From Escherichia phage 236Ecol005PP: a stretch of DNA of 64,000 nucleotides. The notes under the pieces are model-generated. The model saw nothing but the letters and a program-made list of their open reading frames with translations. It ran no database searches and was not told the DNA's origin. This document shows positions 20,124 through 46,695 of the stretch, one piece after another (within the stretch, counting starts at the first letter, position 1; every line of letters starts with the position of its first letter). The position numbers were made by a program, and so were the translations under genes. The DNA is taken from sequence record PP434423.1, one strand, 5' to 3'.

Positions 20124-21892
20124 AAAAGCCACAAGAAATGCAAACGATGCGTAGAAAAGTTATTTCAGATAATAAACCAACACAGGAAGCGGCTAAATCC
20201 GCTTCTAACACTTTATCTGGACTTAACGATATATCTACGAAATTGGATGATGCTCAAGCTGCTTCTGAGTTAATTGCTCAAACTGTCGAAGAAAAATCGA
20301 ATGAAATAATTGGAGCAATTGACAACGTAGAAAGCGCAGTGAGTGATACTACCGCTGGTTCTGAGTTAATTGCTGAAACTGTTGAAATTGGCAATAATAT
20401 TAATAAAGAAATCGGTGAATCACTCGGGAGCAAATTAGATAAATTAACAAGTTTACTAGAGCAAAAAATTCAGACAGCCGGAATTCAACAAACAGGAACT
20501 AGTTTAGCTACGGTTGAAAGCGCTATTCCTGTTAAAGTTGTTGAGGACGATACAGCTGAATCTGTGGGTCCTTTATTACCGGCTCCTGAAGCAGTTAATA
20601 ATGATCCTGATGCTGATTTTTTCCCTACCCCTCAGCCAGTTGAACCCAAACAAGAATCACCAGAAGAAAAACAGAAAAAAGACGCATTTAACTTAAAATT
20701 ATCTCAAGCTTTAGATAAATTAACGAAGACTGTTGATTTTGGATTTAAGAAATCCATTTCAATTACTGATAAAATATCGAGCATGTTATTTAAGTATACT
20801 GTCAGTGCTGCTATTGAAGCTGCTAAAATGACTGCAATGATATTGGCTGTTGTTGTCGGAATAGATCTGTTGATGGTTCATTTCAAATATTGGTCAGATA
20901 AATTTTCGCAGGCTTGGGATTTGTTTAGTACAGACTTTACTAAATTCTCTAGCGAAACCGGAACATGGGGTCCTTTATTACAGAGCATCTTTGGTTCTAT
21001 TGATAAAATTAAGAAGCTGTGGGAAGCTGGAGATTGGGGCGGATTGACAGCAGCTATTGTAGAAGGGCTTGGAAAGGTTCTTTTTAATTTAGGAGAGCTT
21101 ATTCAACTTGGTATGGCTAAATTATCTGCGGCAATTCTTCGAGTCATTCCTGGTATGAAGGATACTGCTGATGAAGTAGAAGGAAGAGCACTAGAAAATT
21201 TCCAAAATACTACAAATGCTTCTCTTAACAAAGAAGACCAAGAAAAAGTTGCAAACTATCAATATAAAAGAATGAATGGAGAACTTGGTCCGATAGCAAA
21301 AGGACTCGACAAAATTGCGAACTGGAAAACTCGTGCATCTAACTGGATTCGTGGTGTTGATAATAAAGAAGCACTAACGACTGATGAAGAGAGAGCAGAG
21401 GAAGAAGAAAAATTAAAGCAACTTTCTCCGGAGGAAGCTAAAATTGCTTTAATGAAAGCTAATGAAGCTCGTGCTGCTATGAATCGTTTTGATGAATATG
21501 CTAATTCAGCTGATATGAGTAAAGACTCAACAGTTAAATCAGTTGAAGCTGCCTATGAAGACCTTAAAAAACGGATGGATGACCCGGATTTAAATAATTC
21601 ACCGGCAGTTAAAAAAGAACTTGCTGCTAGATTTTCTAAAATTGATGCTACTTATCAAGAGCTCAAGAAAAATCAGCCTAATGCCAAACCTCAAACTTCT
21701 GCTAAATCGCCAGAAGCAAAACAAGTCCAGGTAATAGAAAAGAACAAAGCGCAACAAGCTCCTGTTCAACAAGCATCTCCTTCGATCAATAATACTAATA
21801 ATGTTGTTAAGAAAAATACTGTCGTTCATAATATGACACCCGTAACGAGCACGACTGCTCCTGGTGTATTTGATGCGACTGGAGTTAATTAA
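20120..21892 (+). CDS. 29: tail tape-measure protein
   Basis: 590-aa ORF, T4 gp29 size/position. Confidence 0.85.
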   Translation: MKKPQEMQTMRRKVISDNKPTQEAAKSASNTLSGLNDISTKLDDAQAASELIAQTVEEKSNEIIGAIDNVESAVSDTTAGSELIAETVEIGNNINKEIGESLGSKLDKLTSLLEQKIQTAGIQQTGTSLATVESAIPVKVVEDDTAESVGPLLPAPEAVNNDPDADFFPTPQPVEPKQESPEEKQKKDAFNLKLSQALDKLTKTVDFGFKKSISITDKISSMLFKYTVSAAIEAAKMTAMILAVVVGIDLLMVHFKYWSDKFSQAWDLFSTDFTKFSSETGTWGPLLQSIFGSIDKIKKLWEAGDWGGLTAAIVEGLGKVLFNLGELIQLGMAKLSAAILRVIPGMKDTADEVEGRALENFQNTTNASLNKEDQEKVANYQYKRMNGELGPIAKGLDKIANWKTRASNWIRGVDNKEALTTDEERAEEEEKLKQLSPEEAKIALMKANEARAAMNRFDEYANSADMSKDSTVKSVEAAYEDLKKRMDDPDLNNSPAVKKELAARFSKIDATYQELKKNQPNAKPQTSAKSPEAKQVQVIEKNKAQQAPVQQASPSINNTNNVVKKNTVVHNMTPVTSTTAPGVFDATGVN

Positions 21893-23960: not shown

Positions 23961-23964
23961 CAAT

Positions 23965-23995
23965 GGGGACCTTTCGGTCCCCATATTTTTATTTA
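23965..23995 (+). terminator. intrinsic terminator after gene 54
   Basis: GGGGACC-TTTC-GGTCCCC hairpin plus T-run. Confidence 0.6.
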
Positions 23996-24279
23996 CGGAA
24001 TGAAATAAAAGCAGCAACTGAAGCAACTAAACTGTCTTCAATATAAACTTCAATTTTTACCGGAGCTTCTGACTCAAATTTACCTGTTACTACACCTTGG
24101 AAAATACTTTCAGTCTGTTCTGGCTTTGAAAAATTTTCAGAAGGAAAAATTCCGAACTTTTTATCTGTTCCAAAAATTTTGATAAATTCATCATAAACTG
24201 CTTCATTAAAAGCATTATCAGCAGGAATAACGCCTTCAACTACAAGTTCTTGACCTAAAAAGCGCAAAGAAGATTTCAT
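23989..24279 (-). CDS. hypothetical protein (96 aa)
   Basis: ORF starting 8 nt downstream of the promoter/SD cassette at 24288-24340. Confidence 0.55.
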   Translation of the reverse strand: MKSSLRFLGQELVVEGVIPADNAFNEAVYDEFIKIFGTDKKFGIFPSENFSKPEQTESIFQGVVTGKFESEAPVKIEVYIEDSLVASVAAFISFRK

Positions 24280-24287
24280 TTTGTGTT

Positions 24288-24340
24288 CCTCATGTTATGT
24301 CAGTAAGATTACTATAACACAACATGAGGGACTTGTAAAC
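24288..24340 (-). promoter_or_regulatory. T4 early-promoter-like cassette (-35 GTTTAC, -10 TATAGT) inside an inverted repeat that contains the SD
   Basis: - strand reads GTTTACAAGTCCCTCATGTTGTGTTATAGTAATCTTACTGACATAACATGAGG; inverted repeat CCTCATGTT/AACATGAGG; second copy at 38143-38195. Confidence 0.55.
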
Positions 24341-24697
24341 TACATTTTGAACTTTTTAGTACGCGTAATAGGCATGCGTCGATTTTATACTGTTTCATTG
24401 TTTGAAGAGCAGTATCAAAAACAGCATTAATGACACCAATTGGATTTCCGCCCAAGTTTTTAAGCTTAACTAATGATAGTTTCTCATTAACACCTATCAT
24501 TACGATATGCATCATTTTATCGCCCGGCTTAACGTTTTATTCGTATCACCGCCAGAGGTGTATGTACAAAATCTAAATCCAGGAAGCACACTTTCTTCAC
24601 CGGCTTGAATAGCAAAAATTTGAGGTATTTTATGCTTAGGATTTAAGTTAACAACCGGCGCCGAAGCGCCGTCAAATAATTCTGTAATAAGTTCCAT
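24312..24697 (-). pseudogene. frameshifted paralog of the Alt N-terminal region
   Basis: Track ORFs 24512..24697 and 24312..24515 together align with Alt residues about 2-125 (MELITELFD...KIPQIF...GFRFCTYTSGGDTN / MMHIV...KQYKIDACLLRVLKS) in two frames. Confidence 0.65.
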
Positions 24698-24700
24698 GAT

Positions 24701-26752
24701 TTATCCTTGAACGAACTTGTAAGGCATGTTTGCAATATCTATGCAAGACGCAATAATTCCAAGAGATGATTCTGCTTTCTGTTTAACATTTGATGAAACA
24801 AACGATGCAAAGTCAACTCTATCTTCTATATCACCTGTCATTGTAACCAATTCACCAGTTTCCATTAAACGGTCACCGTCATAAATTACCGATTCGGTGA
24901 GTTCTTCTGTGGTCATAACTTCAGCTTGAATAAGCTTGTTGTTAGTTCTAACTGTTCCATCGTTGTAAGATGCATCAGTTATTTTATTAACTTTGACCAT
25001 TAATCCACGTGGCAAAATGACTTCCATTTCATTTGAAGGCGCTAAACTTCCACCGGGTAAAACAACATTGACTTTATCAGCCCCAGTAATAACCCATCCA
25101 ATTCCAACTAAATTATCGCTAGAATTTACAAGTCCTTCATCAGTTTTATCAATAGAAACACTTAAACGCTTTTCGTCTGGTAAAACACCCACAGATGAAT
25201 CAGTCATCCAAGTACCAAAAATATTTGGATATAATGATGTTGACACAAAGTTTCTAAAATAAAAAACTCGATTTTTTACCATTGCTTCGTATATTGAAGG
25301 TAACATTCGTTGTGAACGATACAAAGTAATACCTTTTGGTAATCGTTCACCATTTTTAAAGGCTGAATCTAAATTATCAATGGCTTGTTCTATTTCAGGT
25401 GCTGTTAAAATACTTGTACGCTCATCTGGATTATATAATCCCAAAAGAGCATTATTCATGTCTACATATCCTGAACCTACATATTCACGAATTCCGCGTT
25501 TTTGCGCTGGTGTGTATTTAGATGAATCTTTATTTTCGACTATAGGATGTAATGACCATCCAGCGGTAAGAGCATATCCACGTAATTCTCTTCGAATAAT
25601 CTTTGTTTTTATTGCATTCCAAGAATTTTGTACTAACTCATTTGCAGCATCTTGGTTTAAATGCGAATGTCTGTTAATATTTCTTTCAAACCAAGCACCT
25701 TTATATTTTTCTAAAGTATCATCGACGATAGAAGCAATAGTTTCTAAAGTTTTTATTGAAGTAATAGATTCTTTTCGTAATTTTTCTAAAGCTTTATTTT
25801 TTATTTCTGCATTAATAATGGATTCTTTATCTTCAGGAATTATAGAAGCTTCTCTGAATGCCATCCCAGCTGTAACACTGCTAAGAGCATTCTCTAATGC
25901 AAATCCTGAAGTAGAAATAACAGTTAATTCGTTAGCATCAGAAATTAAAGGCGCGTCGGCGGGTTTATTTAATTCTGCTGCTGAAGCCTCAAATTTTTGA
26001 AACATTGGTGTTTCAAATCTAGAAGATTCCAATGACTGACTTTGTGCAATTGCTCTACGGGAAATTTTAACTTTAACAATAACAGCTTGGTCAGAACGTT
26101 TATCATTTTCTTGCGCAATAGATGCAGCAATTGCCTCATTTTTAGTTACTTGAGCTCCAGTATCTTTATTGATATAAACATCACCGACCTTCGATTCAAC
26201 TTTAGTAAAGAGCTCGGTGCTAATTTCCGGAACTCCTGGAATGTCTTCTAGTGATACATTTTTGCGATGTATAAGAATATATGCATACTTTTTATCGTAA
26301 TCCCAGAGTTCCTTAAGAAGGACGTATCTGCCACCTGAACGACTGCGGATAAGTCTATCAGCAATAACTTGAATTTGTCGAGCTTGACCAGCAGTTTTAG
26401 ACTTAAGAATACGAAGCATGCAGGCATCAATTTTATACTGACGCATCGTTTGCATCGCAACAGTAAAAACTGAATTGATGTAATTAATTGGGCTTGGACC
26501 GAGACCTTTTAATTTAGCAATTGAACCTTTAGCAGTTAATGTAAAAGGAACGATGTGCATCATTTTATCGCCCATCTTTAAATCACGGTTAGTATCACCT
26601 CCAGATGTATAAGTACATAAACGAAAGCCTGGTTGTTCTATTGCGTCATCAACATGAACTGAAAAAATTTGTGGTATTTTCTTCTTTGGATACAAATTTG
26701 TAATCGGAAGAGTAGTATTTTCGTCAAATAATTCTGTAATAAGTTCCATCAT
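24701..26752 (-). CDS. alt: ADP-ribosyltransferase Alt
   Basis: 683-aa ORF in T4 alt position between gene 54 and DNA ligase. Confidence 0.8.
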   Translation of the reverse strand: MMELITELFDENTTLPITNLYPKKKIPQIFSVHVDDAIEQPGFRLCTYTSGGDTNRDLKMGDKMMHIVPFTLTAKGSIAKLKGLGPSPINYINSVFTVAMQTMRQYKIDACMLRILKSKTAGQARQIQVIADRLIRSRSGGRYVLLKELWDYDKKYAYILIHRKNVSLEDIPGVPEISTELFTKVESKVGDVYINKDTGAQVTKNEAIAASIAQENDKRSDQAVIVKVKISRRAIAQSQSLESSRFETPMFQKFEASAAELNKPADAPLISDANELTVISTSGFALENALSSVTAGMAFREASIIPEDKESIINAEIKNKALEKLRKESITSIKTLETIASIVDDTLEKYKGAWFERNINRHSHLNQDAANELVQNSWNAIKTKIIRRELRGYALTAGWSLHPIVENKDSSKYTPAQKRGIREYVGSGYVDMNNALLGLYNPDERTSILTAPEIEQAIDNLDSAFKNGERLPKGITLYRSQRMLPSIYEAMVKNRVFYFRNFVSTSLYPNIFGTWMTDSSVGVLPDEKRLSVSIDKTDEGLVNSSDNLVGIGWVITGADKVNVVLPGGSLAPSNEMEVILPRGLMVKVNKITDASYNDGTVRTNNKLIQAEVMTTEELTESVIYDGDRLMETGELVTMTGDIEDRVDFASFVSSNVKQKAESSLGIIASCIDIANMPYKFVQG

Positions 26753-31121: not shown

Positions 31122-31189
31122 TTTTATTCTCCGAGATGTTTAATTGCGGTACAGGTATATAATATCATATCCTGTACCAAAGTAAACAA

Positions 31190-31522: not shown

Positions 31523-31597
31523 TTTATTCTCCTTTGTTTGTGTAAGATAATACTATTACAAAGGAACCATACTGTAAACAACTTTGTGCAATCTTTG

Positions 31598-35418: not shown

Positions 35419-35419
<1 letters not shown>
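35222..35419 (-). CDS. hypothetical protein (65 aa)
   Basis: ORF coupled to pseT. Confidence 0.4.
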
Positions 35420-36763
<1,344 letters not shown>

Positions 36764-37290: not shown

Positions 37291-37640
37291 TTAGAAAGGT
37301 CCTGGATGTCTTCTGCGAACTTGTTGAAGGAGTTGTTGATTTGTTTTTCAACCAATCCTGGCTTATGAGCCACCACATCCGCCTTCTTTGCGTCTTTGCG
37401 CAGTTTTTCATTTTCACGCTCAATAGCAGCAATTGCCTCACGATTTTTATTATTCATCGCATCAATATAATTATACTGAATTCGCAAATTATTTAATGCT
37501 AAAGCGTTTTCATTGGCCGTTTTTGTAATTTCTACAACAGACGTTTCTAATCTTTCAATTTTACTTTTTAAAATTAAAGAAGTTCCGCCCAATGCAATTA
37601 CAATTAATAGCAAGCCTGCTGTCGTATTACTTAATTGCAT
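37287..37640 (-). CDS. membrane-anchored coiled-coil protein (117 aa)
   Basis: Hydrophobic N-terminal segment AGLLLIVIALGGTSLIL followed by charged heptad-like sequence. Confidence 0.5.
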   Translation of the reverse strand: MQLSNTTAGLLLIVIALGGTSLILKSKIERLETSVVEITKTANENALALNNLRIQYNYIDAMNNKNREAIAAIERENEKLRKDAKKADVVAHKPGLVEKQINNSFNKFAEDIQDLSK

Positions 37641-38137
37641 AAAGTTTTAATAACCTCTATAATATCGTCTTGAGAAAGACCGTTAATTAAAATATGATGT
37701 TCAGCCGGAGATTTAGAAATTTTAAAGCATGCCTCAACATCTTCTGCCATATCTGATGCGCTACGATTTGGATTACTAATTCCAAGACGATGTTTTCCCG
37801 TCAAAGGATTAACGATGATATAGCATTTACAGTTATTAATATGAACATTAGGTTGAGTCTGATTAATGAACACATCACAATCATATTTCGCAAGCTGATT
37901 TTCTAAAAAGACTTTCATCTCCTCAACTGCATCAGGAAGCATATCACGGGCTTGCTCAAGACGACGATTTCGATATTCTTTAATGGTCGTTTTCCGCTTG
38001 ACTTGCTTAGCTAAATCTTTCTTAAGATCGGTGATATATCCAACTCGACGATTTCCTTTAAACACAGAAATCCCATCTGTAGTATCACCGTATGCTTCAA
38101 CGACCATTTCAGTAGTAATAAGCTGTAAATCCATCAT
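37631..38137 (-). CDS. alc: possible Alc (host transcription shutoff) homolog
   Basis: 168-aa ORF in the position and with the size of T4 alc (167 aa as recalled); sequence identity not verified. Confidence 0.45.
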   Translation of the reverse strand: MMDLQLITTEMVVEAYGDTTDGISVFKGNRRVGYITDLKKDLAKQVKRKTTIKEYRNRRLEQARDMLPDAVEEMKVFLENQLAKYDCDVFINQTQPNVHINNCKCYIIVNPLTGKHRLGISNPNRSASDMAEDVEACFKISKSPAEHHILINGLSQDDIIEVIKTLCN

Positions 38138-38142
38138 AAAGT

Positions 38143-38195
38143 CCTCATGTTATGTCAGTAAGACTACTGTAACACAACACGAGGGACTTGTAAAC
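38143..38195 (-). promoter_or_regulatory. second copy of the early-promoter/inverted-repeat cassette
   Basis: - strand GTTTACAAGTCCCTCGTGTTGTGTTACAGTAGTCTTACTGACATAACATGAGG ending 6 nt before the start codon; about 90 percent identical to 24288-24340. Confidence 0.55.
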
Positions 38196-38198
38196 AGC

Positions 38199-39786
<1,588 letters not shown>

Positions 39787-39814: not shown

Positions 39815-40984
39815 TTAAAAATATTTTTTAAAACTCATCATAACTTTATCATCAACATCATTATCAATCTGTGCTACAAGGTAAGATGAAAGTTCTACTT
39901 CTTGTGGCGCGGATTGAACATTATCAGAATTAAGATATTCACGAATCCAAGGATATGGATGTTTAACCGGAGCATCAGTAATTGGGCATGGAAGACCACA
40001 CTGTTTCATACGAGATACAGTTAAGTAATCAATAAAGCTCCACATGCTATTTGTATTTAATCCAGGAACATCGCCATCTTTAAATAAATGAACTGCCCAA
40101 TCTTTTTCTTGGCGGTTAACTTCCATGAAAATATCAACTGCTTCTTGTTCACACTCTTGAGCAATTTTAACCCATTCATCGCCATCAGTACCGGATTGAA
40201 GTTGACGAATAATATATTGAGTGCCTTTAAGGTGAAGCTGCTCATCACGAGCAATGAACTTCATAATCTTGGCATTACCTTCCATGATTTCCATGTTTTT
40301 GTGGAAGTTAAATGTACAGGCGAAAGATACATAAAAACGAATAGCTTCCAATGCGTTGATTACATGAAGGCAAAGATAAAGAGATTTCATTAGTGCTCGT
40401 TTAGTGCATTCAACAACTTTGCCTAGCTCTTCTTTACGAAATCCTTCTGATAAAATTCCTTCATAATCTTCAACCGCATTCTGATATTCACGAGTCTTAA
40501 CTAGAACATCATCGTAATAGCGACCAATGGACTCGGCACGTTTCATGATAGCTTTATCTAATACAATCTCATCAAACACTTTTGACGGATCAGTATAAAG
40601 ATTTCGCATAATATGAGTGTATGAACGGCTGTGAATAGTTTCACTAAAAGTCCATGTAGCAACCCATGTATCAAGGCTTGGGTCTGAAATTAATGACATA
40701 AGTACAGCAGACGGTGCACGACCCTGAATGCTATCTAGAAGTGATTGATACTTCAGGTTATTAGTAAAAATATCTTGCTGATACTGAGGAAGCTTGTTAA
40801 ATTGTGCAGCATCCATCATCAAGTTTACTTCTTCCGGACGCCAGAAAAATGACAACTGCTTTTCGGTTAAATCTTCAAAAACTTTATGGCGTTGAATATC
40901 ATAACGCGCAATACCAAGACCTGAACCGAAGAACATAGGTTCTTTTAAAACATCAACTGGATTTGTATTAAAAACTGTAGACAT
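39815..40984 (-). CDS. nrdB: ribonucleotide reductase small (beta) subunit, uninterrupted
   Basis: 389-aa continuous ORF; no intron. Confidence 0.9.
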   Translation of the reverse strand: MSTVFNTNPVDVLKEPMFFGSGLGIARYDIQRHKVFEDLTEKQLSFFWRPEEVNLMMDAAQFNKLPQYQQDIFTNNLKYQSLLDSIQGRAPSAVLMSLISDPSLDTWVATWTFSETIHSRSYTHIMRNLYTDPSKVFDEIVLDKAIMKRAESIGRYYDDVLVKTREYQNAVEDYEGILSEGFRKEELGKVVECTKRALMKSLYLCLHVINALEAIRFYVSFACTFNFHKNMEIMEGNAKIMKFIARDEQLHLKGTQYIIRQLQSGTDGDEWVKIAQECEQEAVDIFMEVNRQEKDWAVHLFKDGDVPGLNTNSMWSFIDYLTVSRMKQCGLPCPITDAPVKHPYPWIREYLNSDNVQSAPQEVELSSYLVAQIDNDVDDKVMMSFKKYF

Positions 40985-45892: not shown

Positions 45893-46146
45893 CATTATGT
45901 TCAGATAAGGTCGTTAATCTTATCCCGGAATTATATCCAGCTGCATGTCACCATACAGATCAGACTATATCTCCATCTTGATGAAGCAAGATGTCTATCG
46001 TTTCGAGTCACTTGACCCTACTCCCCAAAGGGATAGTCGTTAGGCATTTAGTTCAAAAGAACATTTAGCACGGGATTGTCTACTAGAGAGGTTCCCCGTT
46101 TAGATAGATTACAAGTATAAGTCACCTTATACTCAGGCCTCAATTA
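45893..46146 (-). other. group I self-splicing intron in td, ORF-less (about 254 nt)
   Basis: Exon 1 ends ...GTT TTC TTG GGT then TAATTGAGGCCTGAGTATAAGGTGACTTATACTTG...; intron ends ...CTGAACATAATG; both ends match the T4 td intron as recalled; no ORF inside. Confidence 0.8.
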
Positions 46147-46695
46147 ACCCAAGAAAACATCTACACTTCTTTGGTACCATTGTAAATCAAGATAACCATT
46201 ACGCACATTAAACTGATAGAACATATGACAGGGCGGTAATGCCATTTGATTGATTTCAGCTGGATTCCATGCTGAAACGATTTGACGTCGATCAGTTGGT
46301 AATTTTTTAATACGATCAATAGTTTCAACTAATTGATCCACACCACCGAAATCACGCCATTGTTTACCGTATATAGGACCAAGTTCACCACTATGATATC
46401 CTAGGTCTTTAGCCTGGTTTTCATAGTTATCGTCCCAAATAGTTTTACCTTGAATAAGACTACCATGAGTGCGAAGACGTAAATCATTAACATTGGTAGA
46501 ACCGGAAATAAACCATAGAAGCTCAGCAATGCAAGCTTTCCAAGCGAGCTTCTTAGTCGTTACTGCAGGAAAACCTTTAGTTAAATCCCAACGTAATTTA
46601 GTACCGAACAAAGCAATTGTTCCTGTGCCTGTTCGGTCATCGGTTTCATAGCCATTTTCAAAAATGTCTTTAATTAAATCTTGGTATTGTTTCAT
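46147..46695 (-). CDS. td: thymidylate synthase, exon 1
   Basis: 183 codons ending ...PPCHMFYQF...QRSVDVFLG (TS active-site Cys region). Confidence 0.85.

What the first reader, a model, noticed from the sequence alone, without database searches (positions are those of the whole stretch)
38143..38195. Second copy of the promoter/inverted-repeat cassette, 6 nt upstream of the alc-like ORF
It has the same -35 GTTTAC and SD-containing stem, with a few substitutions (TACAGT at -10; one stem mismatch, AACACGAGG). Its position right at a start codon 14 kb from copy 1 suggests either duplication of a promoter module or recombination-mediated shuffling between early genes.
Basis: seen in the sequence. 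Interest (0 to 1): 0.45.

Follow-up and report, generated by a model that had tools for sequence, protein, structure and literature searches.

The report
Duplicated early promoter–hairpin cassette before alc
A 54-base control module of a T4-like phage, made of an early promoter whose spacer can pair with the ribosome-binding site, sits almost unchanged in front of two unrelated early genes (alc and alt.-3); it probably lets each gene be translated only from its own promoter's transcript, a known T4 design seen here with an early rather than a late promoter.

Summary
Window 38142-38195 (minus strand, upstream of alc) and 24287-24340 (upstream of alt.-3) are one 54-nt unit, 51/54 identical. It runs exactly from the -35 GTTTAC to the end of the Shine-Dalgarno sequence (SD), and the flanks are unrelated. 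All 498 full-length Tequatrovirus records carry exactly two copies.

The 5' arm lies in the -35/-10 spacer and the 3' arm covers the SD. Read-through RNA therefore folds (-25.7 kcal/mol, z -5.2) and buries the SD, while the promoter's own transcript lacks the 5' arm and stays open.

At alc this architecture holds in seven genera with different, compensating stem sequences: 86/87 cells paired, and 9/10 columns show double changes. In seven other lineages examined, alt.-3 has an ordinary early promoter with a free SD. The alt.-3 copy therefore looks like an alc-type cassette transplanted in the Tequatrovirus ancestor.

No U-tract follows the stem, so it is not an intrinsic terminator.

It resembles the T4 e/soc/49/I-TevI hairpins and PeSL cassettes, but the embedded promoter is early. 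The function is inferred, not shown. Interest is modest.

The parts
38142..38195 (-). Copy 2 of the 54-nt repeat unit, upstream of alc. It runs from the -35 hexamer to the end of GAGGA.
   Evidence: the repeat finder family D6; alignments
38190..38195 (-). -35 element GTTTAC (T4 early-promoter type)
   Evidence: Sequence; consensus scan gives TTTACA-17-TACAGT with TG; annotated as a predicted early promoter in OL960580 and LR215724
38172..38189 (-). 5' arm of the long hairpin (AAGUCCCUCGUGUUGUGU), lying entirely within the -35/-10 spacer and therefore absent from the promoter's own transcript
   Evidence: Minimum-free-energy folds
38166..38171 (-). -10 hexamer TACAGT (TATAGT in T4). The C at 38169 turns a U.G pair of the inner stem into C-G.
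38156..38169 (-). Apical stem-loop CAGUA-GUCU-UACUG. The predicted transcription start (A near 38159) lies inside it; that start is inferred from the usual ~7-nt distance from the -10.
   Evidence: Fold; the start position is an inference, not mapped
38139..38155 (-). 3' arm (ACAUAACAUGAGGACUU), containing the SD GAGG at 38143-38146; all four SD bases are paired in the read-through fold
37631..38137 (-). alc ORF (Pfam ALC, E 4e-91). Tandem ATG ATG at 38137-38132; T4 annotates the second.
38199..39359 (-). rnlA (RNA ligase 1), the source of read-through transcripts. Its stop codon TAA (38199-38201) lies 3 nt before GTTTAC.
24287..24340 (-). Copy 1 of the 54-nt unit, upstream of alt.-3: -35 at 24335-24340, -10 TATAGT at 24311-24316, SD GAGG at 24288-24291
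23989..24279 (-). alt.-3 ORF (DUF5498)
24312..24515 (-). alt.-2 relic ORF. Its reading frame runs through the 5' arm of copy 1 and stops inside the -10 (TTA TAG).

Best explanation
The element is a compact early-gene expression cassette. It contains a sigma-70-dependent T4-type early promoter (GTTTAC, then a TG-extended -10), a short leader and the Shine-Dalgarno sequence (SD). The promoter spacer is complementary to the SD region. RNA polymerase starting at this promoter begins about 7 nt after the -10. Its transcript therefore lacks the 5' arm, has an unstructured ~23-nt leader and is translated. RNA that enters from upstream (rnlA for alc; alt or its paralogue for alt.-3) contains both arms and folds into a ~20-bp hairpin that buries the SD. 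On those longer delayed-early, middle or late transcripts the gene is translationally silent. The cassette thus insulates alc, and in Tequatrovirus also alt.-3, from read-through. It ties translation to the short period when early promoters fire. This is the mirror image of the late-only gates of T4 genes e, soc, 49 and I-TevI. The alc hairpin is ancestral in Tevenvirinae. The near-identical alt.-3 copy arose when an alc-type cassette replaced the resident alt.-3 promoter in the Tequatrovirus ancestor, probably by recombination between loosely related early-promoter cassettes. Occasional later exchange between the copies is possible. Shown: the repeat, the geometry, the thermodynamics, the covariation and the phylogenetic distribution. 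Inferred: the transcription start, the existence of read-through RNA, the effect on translation and the direction of transfer.
For: 1. Geometry. The 5' arm lies in the spacer and the 3' arm covers the SD.
2. Thermodynamics. The read-through folds are -28.6 kcal/mol (75-nt segment, z -5.15; the 66-nt segment gives -25.7) for alc and -23.4 (z -4.3) for alt.-3. RNA starting after the -10 folds at only -1.8 and -2.2, no better than shuffles.
3. Conservation at alc. The same architecture holds in Gelderland-, Karam-, Jiaoda-, Braga-, Dhaka- and Winklervirus with different stem sequences, with z -2.5 to -5.6.
4. Covariation. A structure-anchored count over 7 genera gives 86/87 core cells paired and 9/10 columns with compensatory double changes. 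Register shifts give 34-40 paired cells out of 69-87 and 1-4 such columns.
5. Variation within Tequatrovirus. In 31 copies from about 18 genomes or contigs, stem substitutions are mostly pair-preserving transitions. These are p16 G/A, p27 T/C with p40 G/A (UG, CG and UA occur, never CA), p44 T>C, p46 A>G, p42 C>T and p15 C>T. The other variants lie in the loop, and minimum free energy stays between -21 and -26 kcal/mol.
6. Strand. In Tequatrovirus the sense strand folds better than the antisense because of G.U pairs.
7. Not a terminator. No U-tract follows the stem in either copy or in any genus.
8. The known T4 precedent for this logic is described in PMC3014915 and PMC2988022.
9. Transfer. 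alt.-3 promoters in seven other lineages leave the SD free. The alc/alt.-3 pair is an outlier only in Tequatrovirus: 52/56 against a next-best 41 and a median of 34. In NHEP11, AS6 and KPN6 the corresponding pairs score 42-46 against medians of 38-41.
Against: No transcript 5' ends, read-through RNA, structure probing or translation data were available, so the function is an inference.

One Mosigvirus-like phage (NHEP11) has the alc promoter without an SD hairpin (z -0.6). A Providencia phage has a hairpin that spans the -10 but not the SD. The device is therefore dispensable.

No obvious reason is known why Alc must not be made late.

The covariation count used an alignment anchored on each sequence's own helix, which inflates the paired fraction.

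In T4 and in this window the decayed alt.-2 ORF reads through the 5' arm of the alt.-3 copy. If alt.-2 is translated, ribosomes would open that hairpin.

The key T4 reviews (Miller 2003; Liebig and Rueger 1989) could not be read, so prior description cannot be excluded.
Confidence: 0.6

Rival explanations
1. The element is a PeSL-type cassette. Its stem-loop mainly terminates or attenuates transcription arriving from upstream, and it serves as a recombination point for modular shuffling, as proposed for RB49/phi1, PST and nt-1.
For: PeSLs are early promoter + stem-loop + SD/ATG units repeated in T4-like genomes, with stem-loops often between or overlapping the -35 and -10. Six of nine window early promoters have promoter-spanning hairpins with z <= -2.1. 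The two copies are direct repeats long enough for T4 recombination. Several identical variant states occur at both loci in different genomes.
Against: No U-tract follows the stem in either copy or in the six other genera. Both sites are syntenic across genera rather than lying next to indels. The cassette is never found before any other gene in 499 records. Excision between the copies would delete essential genes 30 and 31. The SD is always part of the 3' arm at alc, which a terminator role does not require.
Confidence: 0.15
2. The hairpin is an RNA processing or stability element. It would be an RNase III/E site or a 3'-end protective stem for rnlA and alt mRNA after cleavage, and SD sequestration would be incidental.
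For: The Tequatrovirus stem reaches about 22 bp. It lies immediately after the upstream stop codon. Related promoter-spanning hairpins elsewhere do not include the SD.
Against: In other genera the contiguous stem is only 9-15 bp, which is short for RNase III. The 3' arm includes the SD in all seven genera, although the rest of the arm varies freely.
Confidence: 0.1
3. The hairpin is a translational-coupling device. It keeps the downstream SD closed unless ribosomes finishing the upstream ORF melt it, so that alc or alt.-3 is made in proportion to the upstream protein on polycistronic RNA.
For: Upstream stop codons sit 0-4 nt before GTTTAC in all genera. In T4 and this window the alt.-2 relic frame runs through the 5' arm of the alt.-3 copy.
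Against: At alc the first paired base is 12 nt past the start of the stop codon, at or beyond the reach of a terminating ribosome (established ribosome footprint geometry). At most the outer 1-3 pairs of 9-22 would open. A dedicated promoter inside the hairpin is unnecessary for coupling.
Confidence: 0.1
4. The near-identity reflects a DNA-level function: a shared protein-binding site or a cruciform that co-regulates the two promoters.
For: The identity covers the whole promoter, spacer included, and no fixed difference separates the two loci.
Against: Across genera the spacer sequence is not conserved but covaries with the SD arm. Loops of 20-27 nt make cruciform extrusion unlikely. G.U pairs favour RNA of the sense strand. 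No candidate factor is known.
Confidence: 0.05

Closest known systems
T4 RBS-sequestering hairpins with an embedded promoter (genes e, soc, 49, I-TevI/II/III, segB; Aeh1 mobE)
   Same: The SD and/or AUG is buried in a helix that forms only on transcripts started far upstream. A promoter placed within or next to the 5' arm makes a shorter, open, translatable RNA (PMC3014915, PMC2988022).
   Different: In those cases the embedded promoter is a late promoter and the gate is 'late only'. PMC2988022 states that all known cases are late genes. Here the embedded promoter is an early sigma-70-type promoter whose -35/-10 spacer is itself the 5' arm, so the predicted gate is 'early only'. Here the effect on translation is untested.
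PeSL (promoter-early stem-loop) cassettes of RB49/phi1, PST/T4 and nt-1/KVP40
   Same: They are compact repeated units of early promoter + stem-loop + SD/ATG lying right after the upstream stop codon. In RB49 the stem-loops are often between or overlapping the -35 and -10.
   Different: PeSL stems are local, are described as terminators or attenuators, and cluster at indels in hyperplastic regions. For PST/T4 they are described as lying upstream of the promoter. Here the stem spans the whole promoter and pairs with the SD, lacks a U-tract, and sits at two syntenically stable sites.
Conserved early-promoter/stem-loop motifs at the T-even internal-protein (IP) loci (Repoila et al. 1994, as summarised in PMC2839356)
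   Same: They are T4-type early promoter units with AT-rich stem-loops repeated before different genes, and are thought to mediate module exchange.
   Different: They are associated with highly variable gene content. The original paper could not be read, so the sequence relationship was not tested.
Read-through insulation by anti-SD-like CT-rich motifs inside bacterial sigma-54 promoters (bioRxiv 10.1101/086108)
   Same: A sequence inside a promoter lowers expression of the downstream gene only when it is transcribed by read-through (abstract). That it does so by pairing with the SD is my recollection of that preprint, not stated in the retrieved text.
   Different: It involves a different promoter class and organisms, and short motifs rather than a 10-22-bp covarying helix. 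Only the abstract was seen.

Membership tests
T4-type early promoter | -35 GTTTAC, a 17-nt spacer (counted from TTTACA) and a -10 TAnnnT | tested here: met
   GTTTAC at 38195-38190; TTTACA-17-TACAGT scores 9/12. Copy 1 has TATAGT and scores 10/12.
T4-type early promoter | Extended -10 (TGn) | tested here: met
   'TG_before_second = yes' for both copies.
T4-type early promoter | A-rich UP-like region upstream of the -35 | tested here: inconclusive
   The alt.-3 copy has ACTAAAAAGTTCAAAATGTA. The alc copy is preceded by the rnlA coding sequence CCCAGAAGGATACTAAGCT, which is not A-rich.
T4-type early promoter | Initiation by unmodified host RNA polymerase in the first minutes of infection | not testable with these tools
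   Only in-silico promoter annotations exist, in OL960580 and LR215724. The T4 reference records carry no promoter feature here.
Promoter-embedded RBS-sequestering hairpin (T4 e/soc/49/I-TevI type) | SD and/or start codon paired in a stable helix on long transcripts | tested here: met
   All four SD bases are paired. Folds are -28.6 and -23.4 kcal/mol with z -5.15 and -4.3. The helix covaries in 7 genera.
Promoter-embedded RBS-sequestering hairpin (T4 e/soc/49/I-TevI type) | A nearby promoter yields a transcript lacking the 5' arm | tested here: met
   The 5' arm (38172-38189) lies upstream of the -10. RNA from 38162 onward folds at -1.8 kcal/mol, no better than shuffles. The start site itself is inferred.
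Promoter-embedded RBS-sequestering hairpin (T4 e/soc/49/I-TevI type) | The embedded promoter is a late promoter and the gene is late | tested here: not met
   The promoter is of the early GTTTAC type. The published examples are all late genes (PMC2988022).
Promoter-embedded RBS-sequestering hairpin (T4 e/soc/49/I-TevI type) | Demonstrated reduction of translation on long transcripts | not testable with these tools
   Needs reporter fusions or ribosome profiling.
PeSL cassette | Early promoter + stem-loop + SD/ATG in one short intergenic unit directly after the upstream stop codon | tested here: met
   definition.
PeSL cassette | The stem-loop acts as a terminator or attenuator | tested here: inconclusive
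   No terminator-like site and no U-tract were found. Attenuation without a U-tract cannot be excluded in silico.
PeSL cassette | Preferential location in hyperplastic regions and association with indels or replacements | tested here: not met
   The rnlA-alc and alt-alt.-3-gene 54 junctions are syntenic across genera. There are exactly two copies in each of the 498 full-length records.
Intrinsic (Rho-independent) terminator | GC-rich stem followed by a U-tract | tested here: not met
   Zero terminator-like hits on the minus strand at either cassette. The tails are CUUUAUGAUG and ACACAAAAUG.
Rfam RNA families | Match to a curated covariance model | tested here: not met
   Only Intron_gpI at 45941-46156 reached the gathering score in the window.

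The most novel reading that the evidence does not exclude
Promoter-spacer/SD hairpins are a conserved 'early-only' translational gate of Tevenvirinae. They restrict Alc, and in Tequatrovirus Alt.-3, to transcripts from their own immediate-early promoter. Whole promoter-leader-SD modules can be transplanted between unrelated early genes by ectopic recombination and then kept alike by gene conversion. Regulatory logic would thus move as a unit, independently of genes.
Probability: 0.35. Interest if true: 0.5.

Novelty: new member of a known kind. Interest (0 to 1): 0.35.

Why it matters
If the inferred mechanism holds, it extends a classic T4 regulatory device to immediate-early genes. That device is an RBS hidden in read-through RNA and exposed in the transcript of an embedded promoter. 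Until now it has been documented only for late genes. The extension would explain how a gene inside a long polycistronic region can be limited to the first minutes of infection.

It also gives a clean, dated example of a regulatory module, rather than a gene, being copied between loci in a phage lineage.

It identifies a 54-bp direct repeat that could drive 14-kb deletions or duplications in engineered T4-like therapeutic phages.

Practically, anyone re-engineering alc or alt.-3, the gene whose mutants escape the CmdTAC defence (PMC11618068), should know that spacer changes may alter translation as well as promoter strength.

Tried and rejected
- **Chance or generic early-promoter similarity.** Rejected by the pairwise matrix and the shuffle-controlled pattern searches.
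- **More copies or half-copies in the window.** None found.
- **Copies before other genes or in other phages.** blastn of the 60-nt cassette against 50,697 phage records gave only Tequatrovirus, two places per full-length genome. The IMG/VR and metagenome scans gave only T4-like contigs plus two chance hits, L004 and L006.
- **Intrinsic terminator.** No U-tract.
- **Rfam family.** None.
- **MAFFT + RNAalifold on the cross-genus set.** It mis-aligned the 3' arms and gave a weak consensus. I replaced it with an explicit structure-anchored count with register-shift controls.
- **A genus-specific alc/alt.-3 twin in other genera.** The Jiaodavirus 'second place' proved to be the alt.-3 promoter, which shares only the -10/leader/SD consensus and lacks the 5' arm. 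The pair is not an outlier in NHEP11, AS6 or KPN6.
- **Concerted evolution.** Five variant states (A16, A32, A33, T34, A40) occur at both loci in different genomes. With strong constraint on which sites may vary, parallel mutation cannot be excluded, so this is left as suggestive.
- **Literature.** Miller et al. 2003 (PMC150520) and Repoila et al. 1994 (PMC395341) are not held. The PST PeSL supplement is not held. Hinton 2010, the DksA paper and the T4 omics paper say nothing about the alc promoter. The T4 GenBank and RefSeq records carry no promoter feature at either site.

Full report
**Context.** The window is a Tequatrovirus (T4-like) genome segment, 95-99% identical over 2.5 kb to about 500 phage records. 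Early genes lie on the minus strand. The finding sits in the 61-nt gap between rnlA (38199-39359) and alc (37631-38137; Pfam ALC, E 4e-91).

**Observation.** Read on the minus strand, the region is TAA(rnlA stop)-GCT-GTTTAC-AAGTCCCTCGTGTTGTGT-TACAGT-AGTCTTACTGACATAACATGAGGA-CTTT-ATGATG. The 'stem mismatch' is a G.U pair in the sense RNA.

The other copy is at 24287-24340, directly upstream of alt.-3 (23989-24279; DUF5498). The repeat finder independently reports two copies of exactly 54 nt, 94% identical and 13,855 bp apart. Identity starts at the G of GTTTAC and ends at the A after GAGG, and both flanks are unrelated. In T4 itself the two copies differ at one position.

**More than promoter consensus?** Yes.
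- Among ten GTTTAC-type promoters on this strand, the alc/alt.-3 pair shares 51/54 positions. All other pairs average 23.7 (sd 4.5, max 36).
- In the 25 nt downstream of the -10 the pair shares 24 positions, against a maximum of 16 for other pairs.
- In the 17-nt spacer the pair shares 16 positions, against a maximum of 10.

**Distribution.**
- blastn of the 60-nt cassette against 50,697 phage records finds 499 records and 997 places. That is two per full-length genome; one 13-kb partial record has one. All are Tequatrovirus or its unclassified relatives.
- The IMG/VR and metagenome scans add only T4-like contigs.
- The cassette never precedes any other gene.

**Anatomy and folding.** The 5' arm (38172-38189) is the -35/-10 spacer. 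The 3' arm (38139-38155) includes the SD (38143-38146). A small apical stem-loop contains the -10 and the expected start site.
- RNA containing both arms folds to -28.6 kcal/mol (75-nt segment, z -5.15; the 66-nt segment gives -25.7) for alc and -23.4 (z -4.3) for alt.-3.
- RNA beginning after the -10 folds to -1.8 and -2.2 kcal/mol, no better than shuffles.
- No U-tract follows the stem, and no terminator-like site is detected on this strand.
- No Rfam family matches.

**Comparative evidence at alc.** Alc homologues occur in more than 1,100 phage records. In Gelderland-, Karam-, Jiaoda-, Braga-, Dhaka- and Winklervirus the rnlA-alc gap has the same layout. GTTTAC is followed within 1-2 nt by a 5' arm, then a -10, then a 3' arm containing the SD, then ATG.

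The arm sequences differ and compensate. Examples are AUCUCCGUUUAGUU/AACUAAACGGAGAU, AUCCUCAUCAG/CUGAUGAGGAU and AACCUCUCAUUUU/AAAAUGAGAGGUU. Their z-scores are -2.5 to -5.6.

In a structure-anchored alignment, 86/87 cells of the ten core pairs are standard pairs, and nine of ten columns show double (compensatory) changes. Sliding the 3' partner by 1-3 columns gives 34-40 paired cells out of 69-87 and 1-4 such columns. The anchoring favours the structure, so the paired fraction is an upper bound. The variety of pair types at fixed positions relative to the -35 and the SD is still the key point.

There are exceptions.
- A Mosigvirus-like phage (NHEP11) keeps the promoter but has only a short spacer-internal hairpin (z -0.6).
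- A Providencia phage has a hairpin that spans the -10 but not the SD.
- Acinetobacter, Aeromonas and Nanhuvirus phages show nothing comparable.
- VR7 has an extra ORF inserted between rnlA and alc.

**Comparative evidence at alt.-3.** In Gapriver-, Dhaka-, Marfa-, Moon-, Karam- and Jiaodavirus, and in a Mosigvirus-like phage, alt.-3 is preceded by a GTTTAC promoter. It carries a short spacer-internal hairpin of the CACnnGGAnGTG type and leaves the SD free.

Within NHEP11, AS6 and KPN6 the alc/alt.-3 cassette pair is no more alike than other early cassettes: 42-46 of 56 against medians of 38-41. In the window the pair scores 52, against a next-best 41 and a median of 34.

The simplest history is that the SD-sequestering cassette is ancestral at alc. 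A copy then replaced the alt.-3 promoter in the Tequatrovirus ancestor.

**Variation within Tequatrovirus.** I examined 31 copies from about 18 genomes or contigs.
- Stem substitutions are mostly pair-preserving transitions. They are p16 G/A (G.U or A-U), p27 T/C with p40 G/A (UG, CG and UA occur, never CA), p44 T>C, p46 A>G, p42 C>T and p15 C>T.
- Three substitutions touch the outermost part of the 5' arm (p8, p10, p12).
- The remaining variants are in the loop. Minimum free energy stays between -21 and -26 kcal/mol.
- No fixed difference separates the two loci, and five variant states occur at both loci in different genomes. This suggests exchange between the copies, but parallel mutation at the few tolerated sites would also explain it.
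- In Tequatrovirus the sense strand folds 6-9 kcal/mol better than the antisense at alc because of G.U pairs. In other genera the two strands are about equal.

**Mechanism.** The best-supported reading is translational insulation from read-through. Only the promoter's own short transcript exposes the SD. Transcripts entering from rnlA, or from alt and its paralogue, hide it.

The logic matches T4 genes e, soc, 49, I-TevI and segB, where a late promoter sits in the 5' arm (PMC3014915, PMC2988022). The latter review notes that all known cases are late genes. Here the embedded promoter is early, so the predicted outcome is restriction of translation to the early-promoter phase.

The element also fits the broad description of PeSL cassettes (PMC2839356, PMC4122927). 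However, it lacks their terminator signature and their association with indels. Six of nine early promoters in the window have promoter-spanning hairpins, and one more (-35 at 31579) also pairs with its SD. The alc cassette therefore belongs to a wider class.

**Rivals.** The alternatives are a terminator/recombination module, a processing or stability element, a translational-coupling device and a DNA-level site. They are weighed in the dedicated fields. None explains as well why the SD is always part of the 3' arm and the spacer always supplies the 5' arm.

**Limits.**
- No experimental data on starts, read-through or translation were accessible.
- The main T4 genome review and the early-promoter catalogue could not be read, so prior description cannot be excluded.
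- The T4 reference records carry no promoter feature at either site. Two newer phage records annotate predicted early promoters there.

**Verdict.** The feature is real and precisely bounded, and the hairpin is evolutionarily supported. It is a new member of a known T4 design principle, with early rather than late polarity, and was duplicated as a module within Tequatrovirus. Interest is modest (0.35).

Noticed in passing
window 35757-36038 (within ORF 35419-36468, minus strand): A 99% identical (near-perfect) in-frame tandem duplication of 141 nt lies inside the polynucleotide kinase/phosphatase gene pseT. It gives 349 aa instead of about 301. The repeated 47 aa include the phosphatase DVDGT motif. 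It could be real or an assembly artefact.
   Followed up: partly
window 24312-24697 (minus strand); L013 29876-31933; L031, L032, L034: The alt.-1/alt.-2 ORFs are the decayed remains of a second alt (ADP-ribosyltransferase) paralogue. That paralogue is full-length in fPS-65, PE37, TB37 and ph0021. A 31-nt repeat (24670-24700 and 26722-26752) marks the duplicated gene start.
   Followed up: partly
window, -35 hexamers at 31187, 47998, 34748 and 31579 (minus strand): Other early promoters also have hairpins whose 5' arm lies in the spacer and whose 3' arm lies in the leader (z -5.2, -3.0, -2.7 and -2.1). At 31579 (gene 30.8 homologue) the 3' arm is the SD AAGGAG. Similar SD-pairing cassettes occur in Karamvirus AS6 (L030, -35 at 20973).
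   Followed up: partly
L023-L028 at about 230-300; L022 27079-27141: The alt.-3 promoters of other genera share a short hairpin wholly inside the -35/-10 spacer (CACnnGGAnGTG type). The same motif is at the alc promoter of NHEP11. Its function is unknown.
   Followed up: no
window 45941-46156 (minus strand): A group I intron (Rfam Intron_gpI, 72.7 bits), presumably the td intron. The nrdB ORF at 39815-40984 appears uninterrupted, unlike in T4.
   Followed up: no
window 23963-23984: A GC-rich palindrome (ATGGGGACC...GGTCCCCAT) lies between convergent gene 54 and alt.-3. It scores as a terminator on both strands.
   Followed up: no
L016 389-703 (phage VR7): Gaprivervirus VR7 has an extra 77-aa ORF between rnlA and alc. 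It is preceded by a terminator-like stem and by its own SD-sequestering hairpin GGUUCCAUCA/UGAUGAGGACC.
   Followed up: no
window 23989-24279 (alt.-3): Alt.-3 (DUF5498) is the gene whose C-terminal extension mutants let T4 escape the CmdTAC defence system (PMC11618068). Its expression control may therefore matter for counter-defence.
   Followed up: partly
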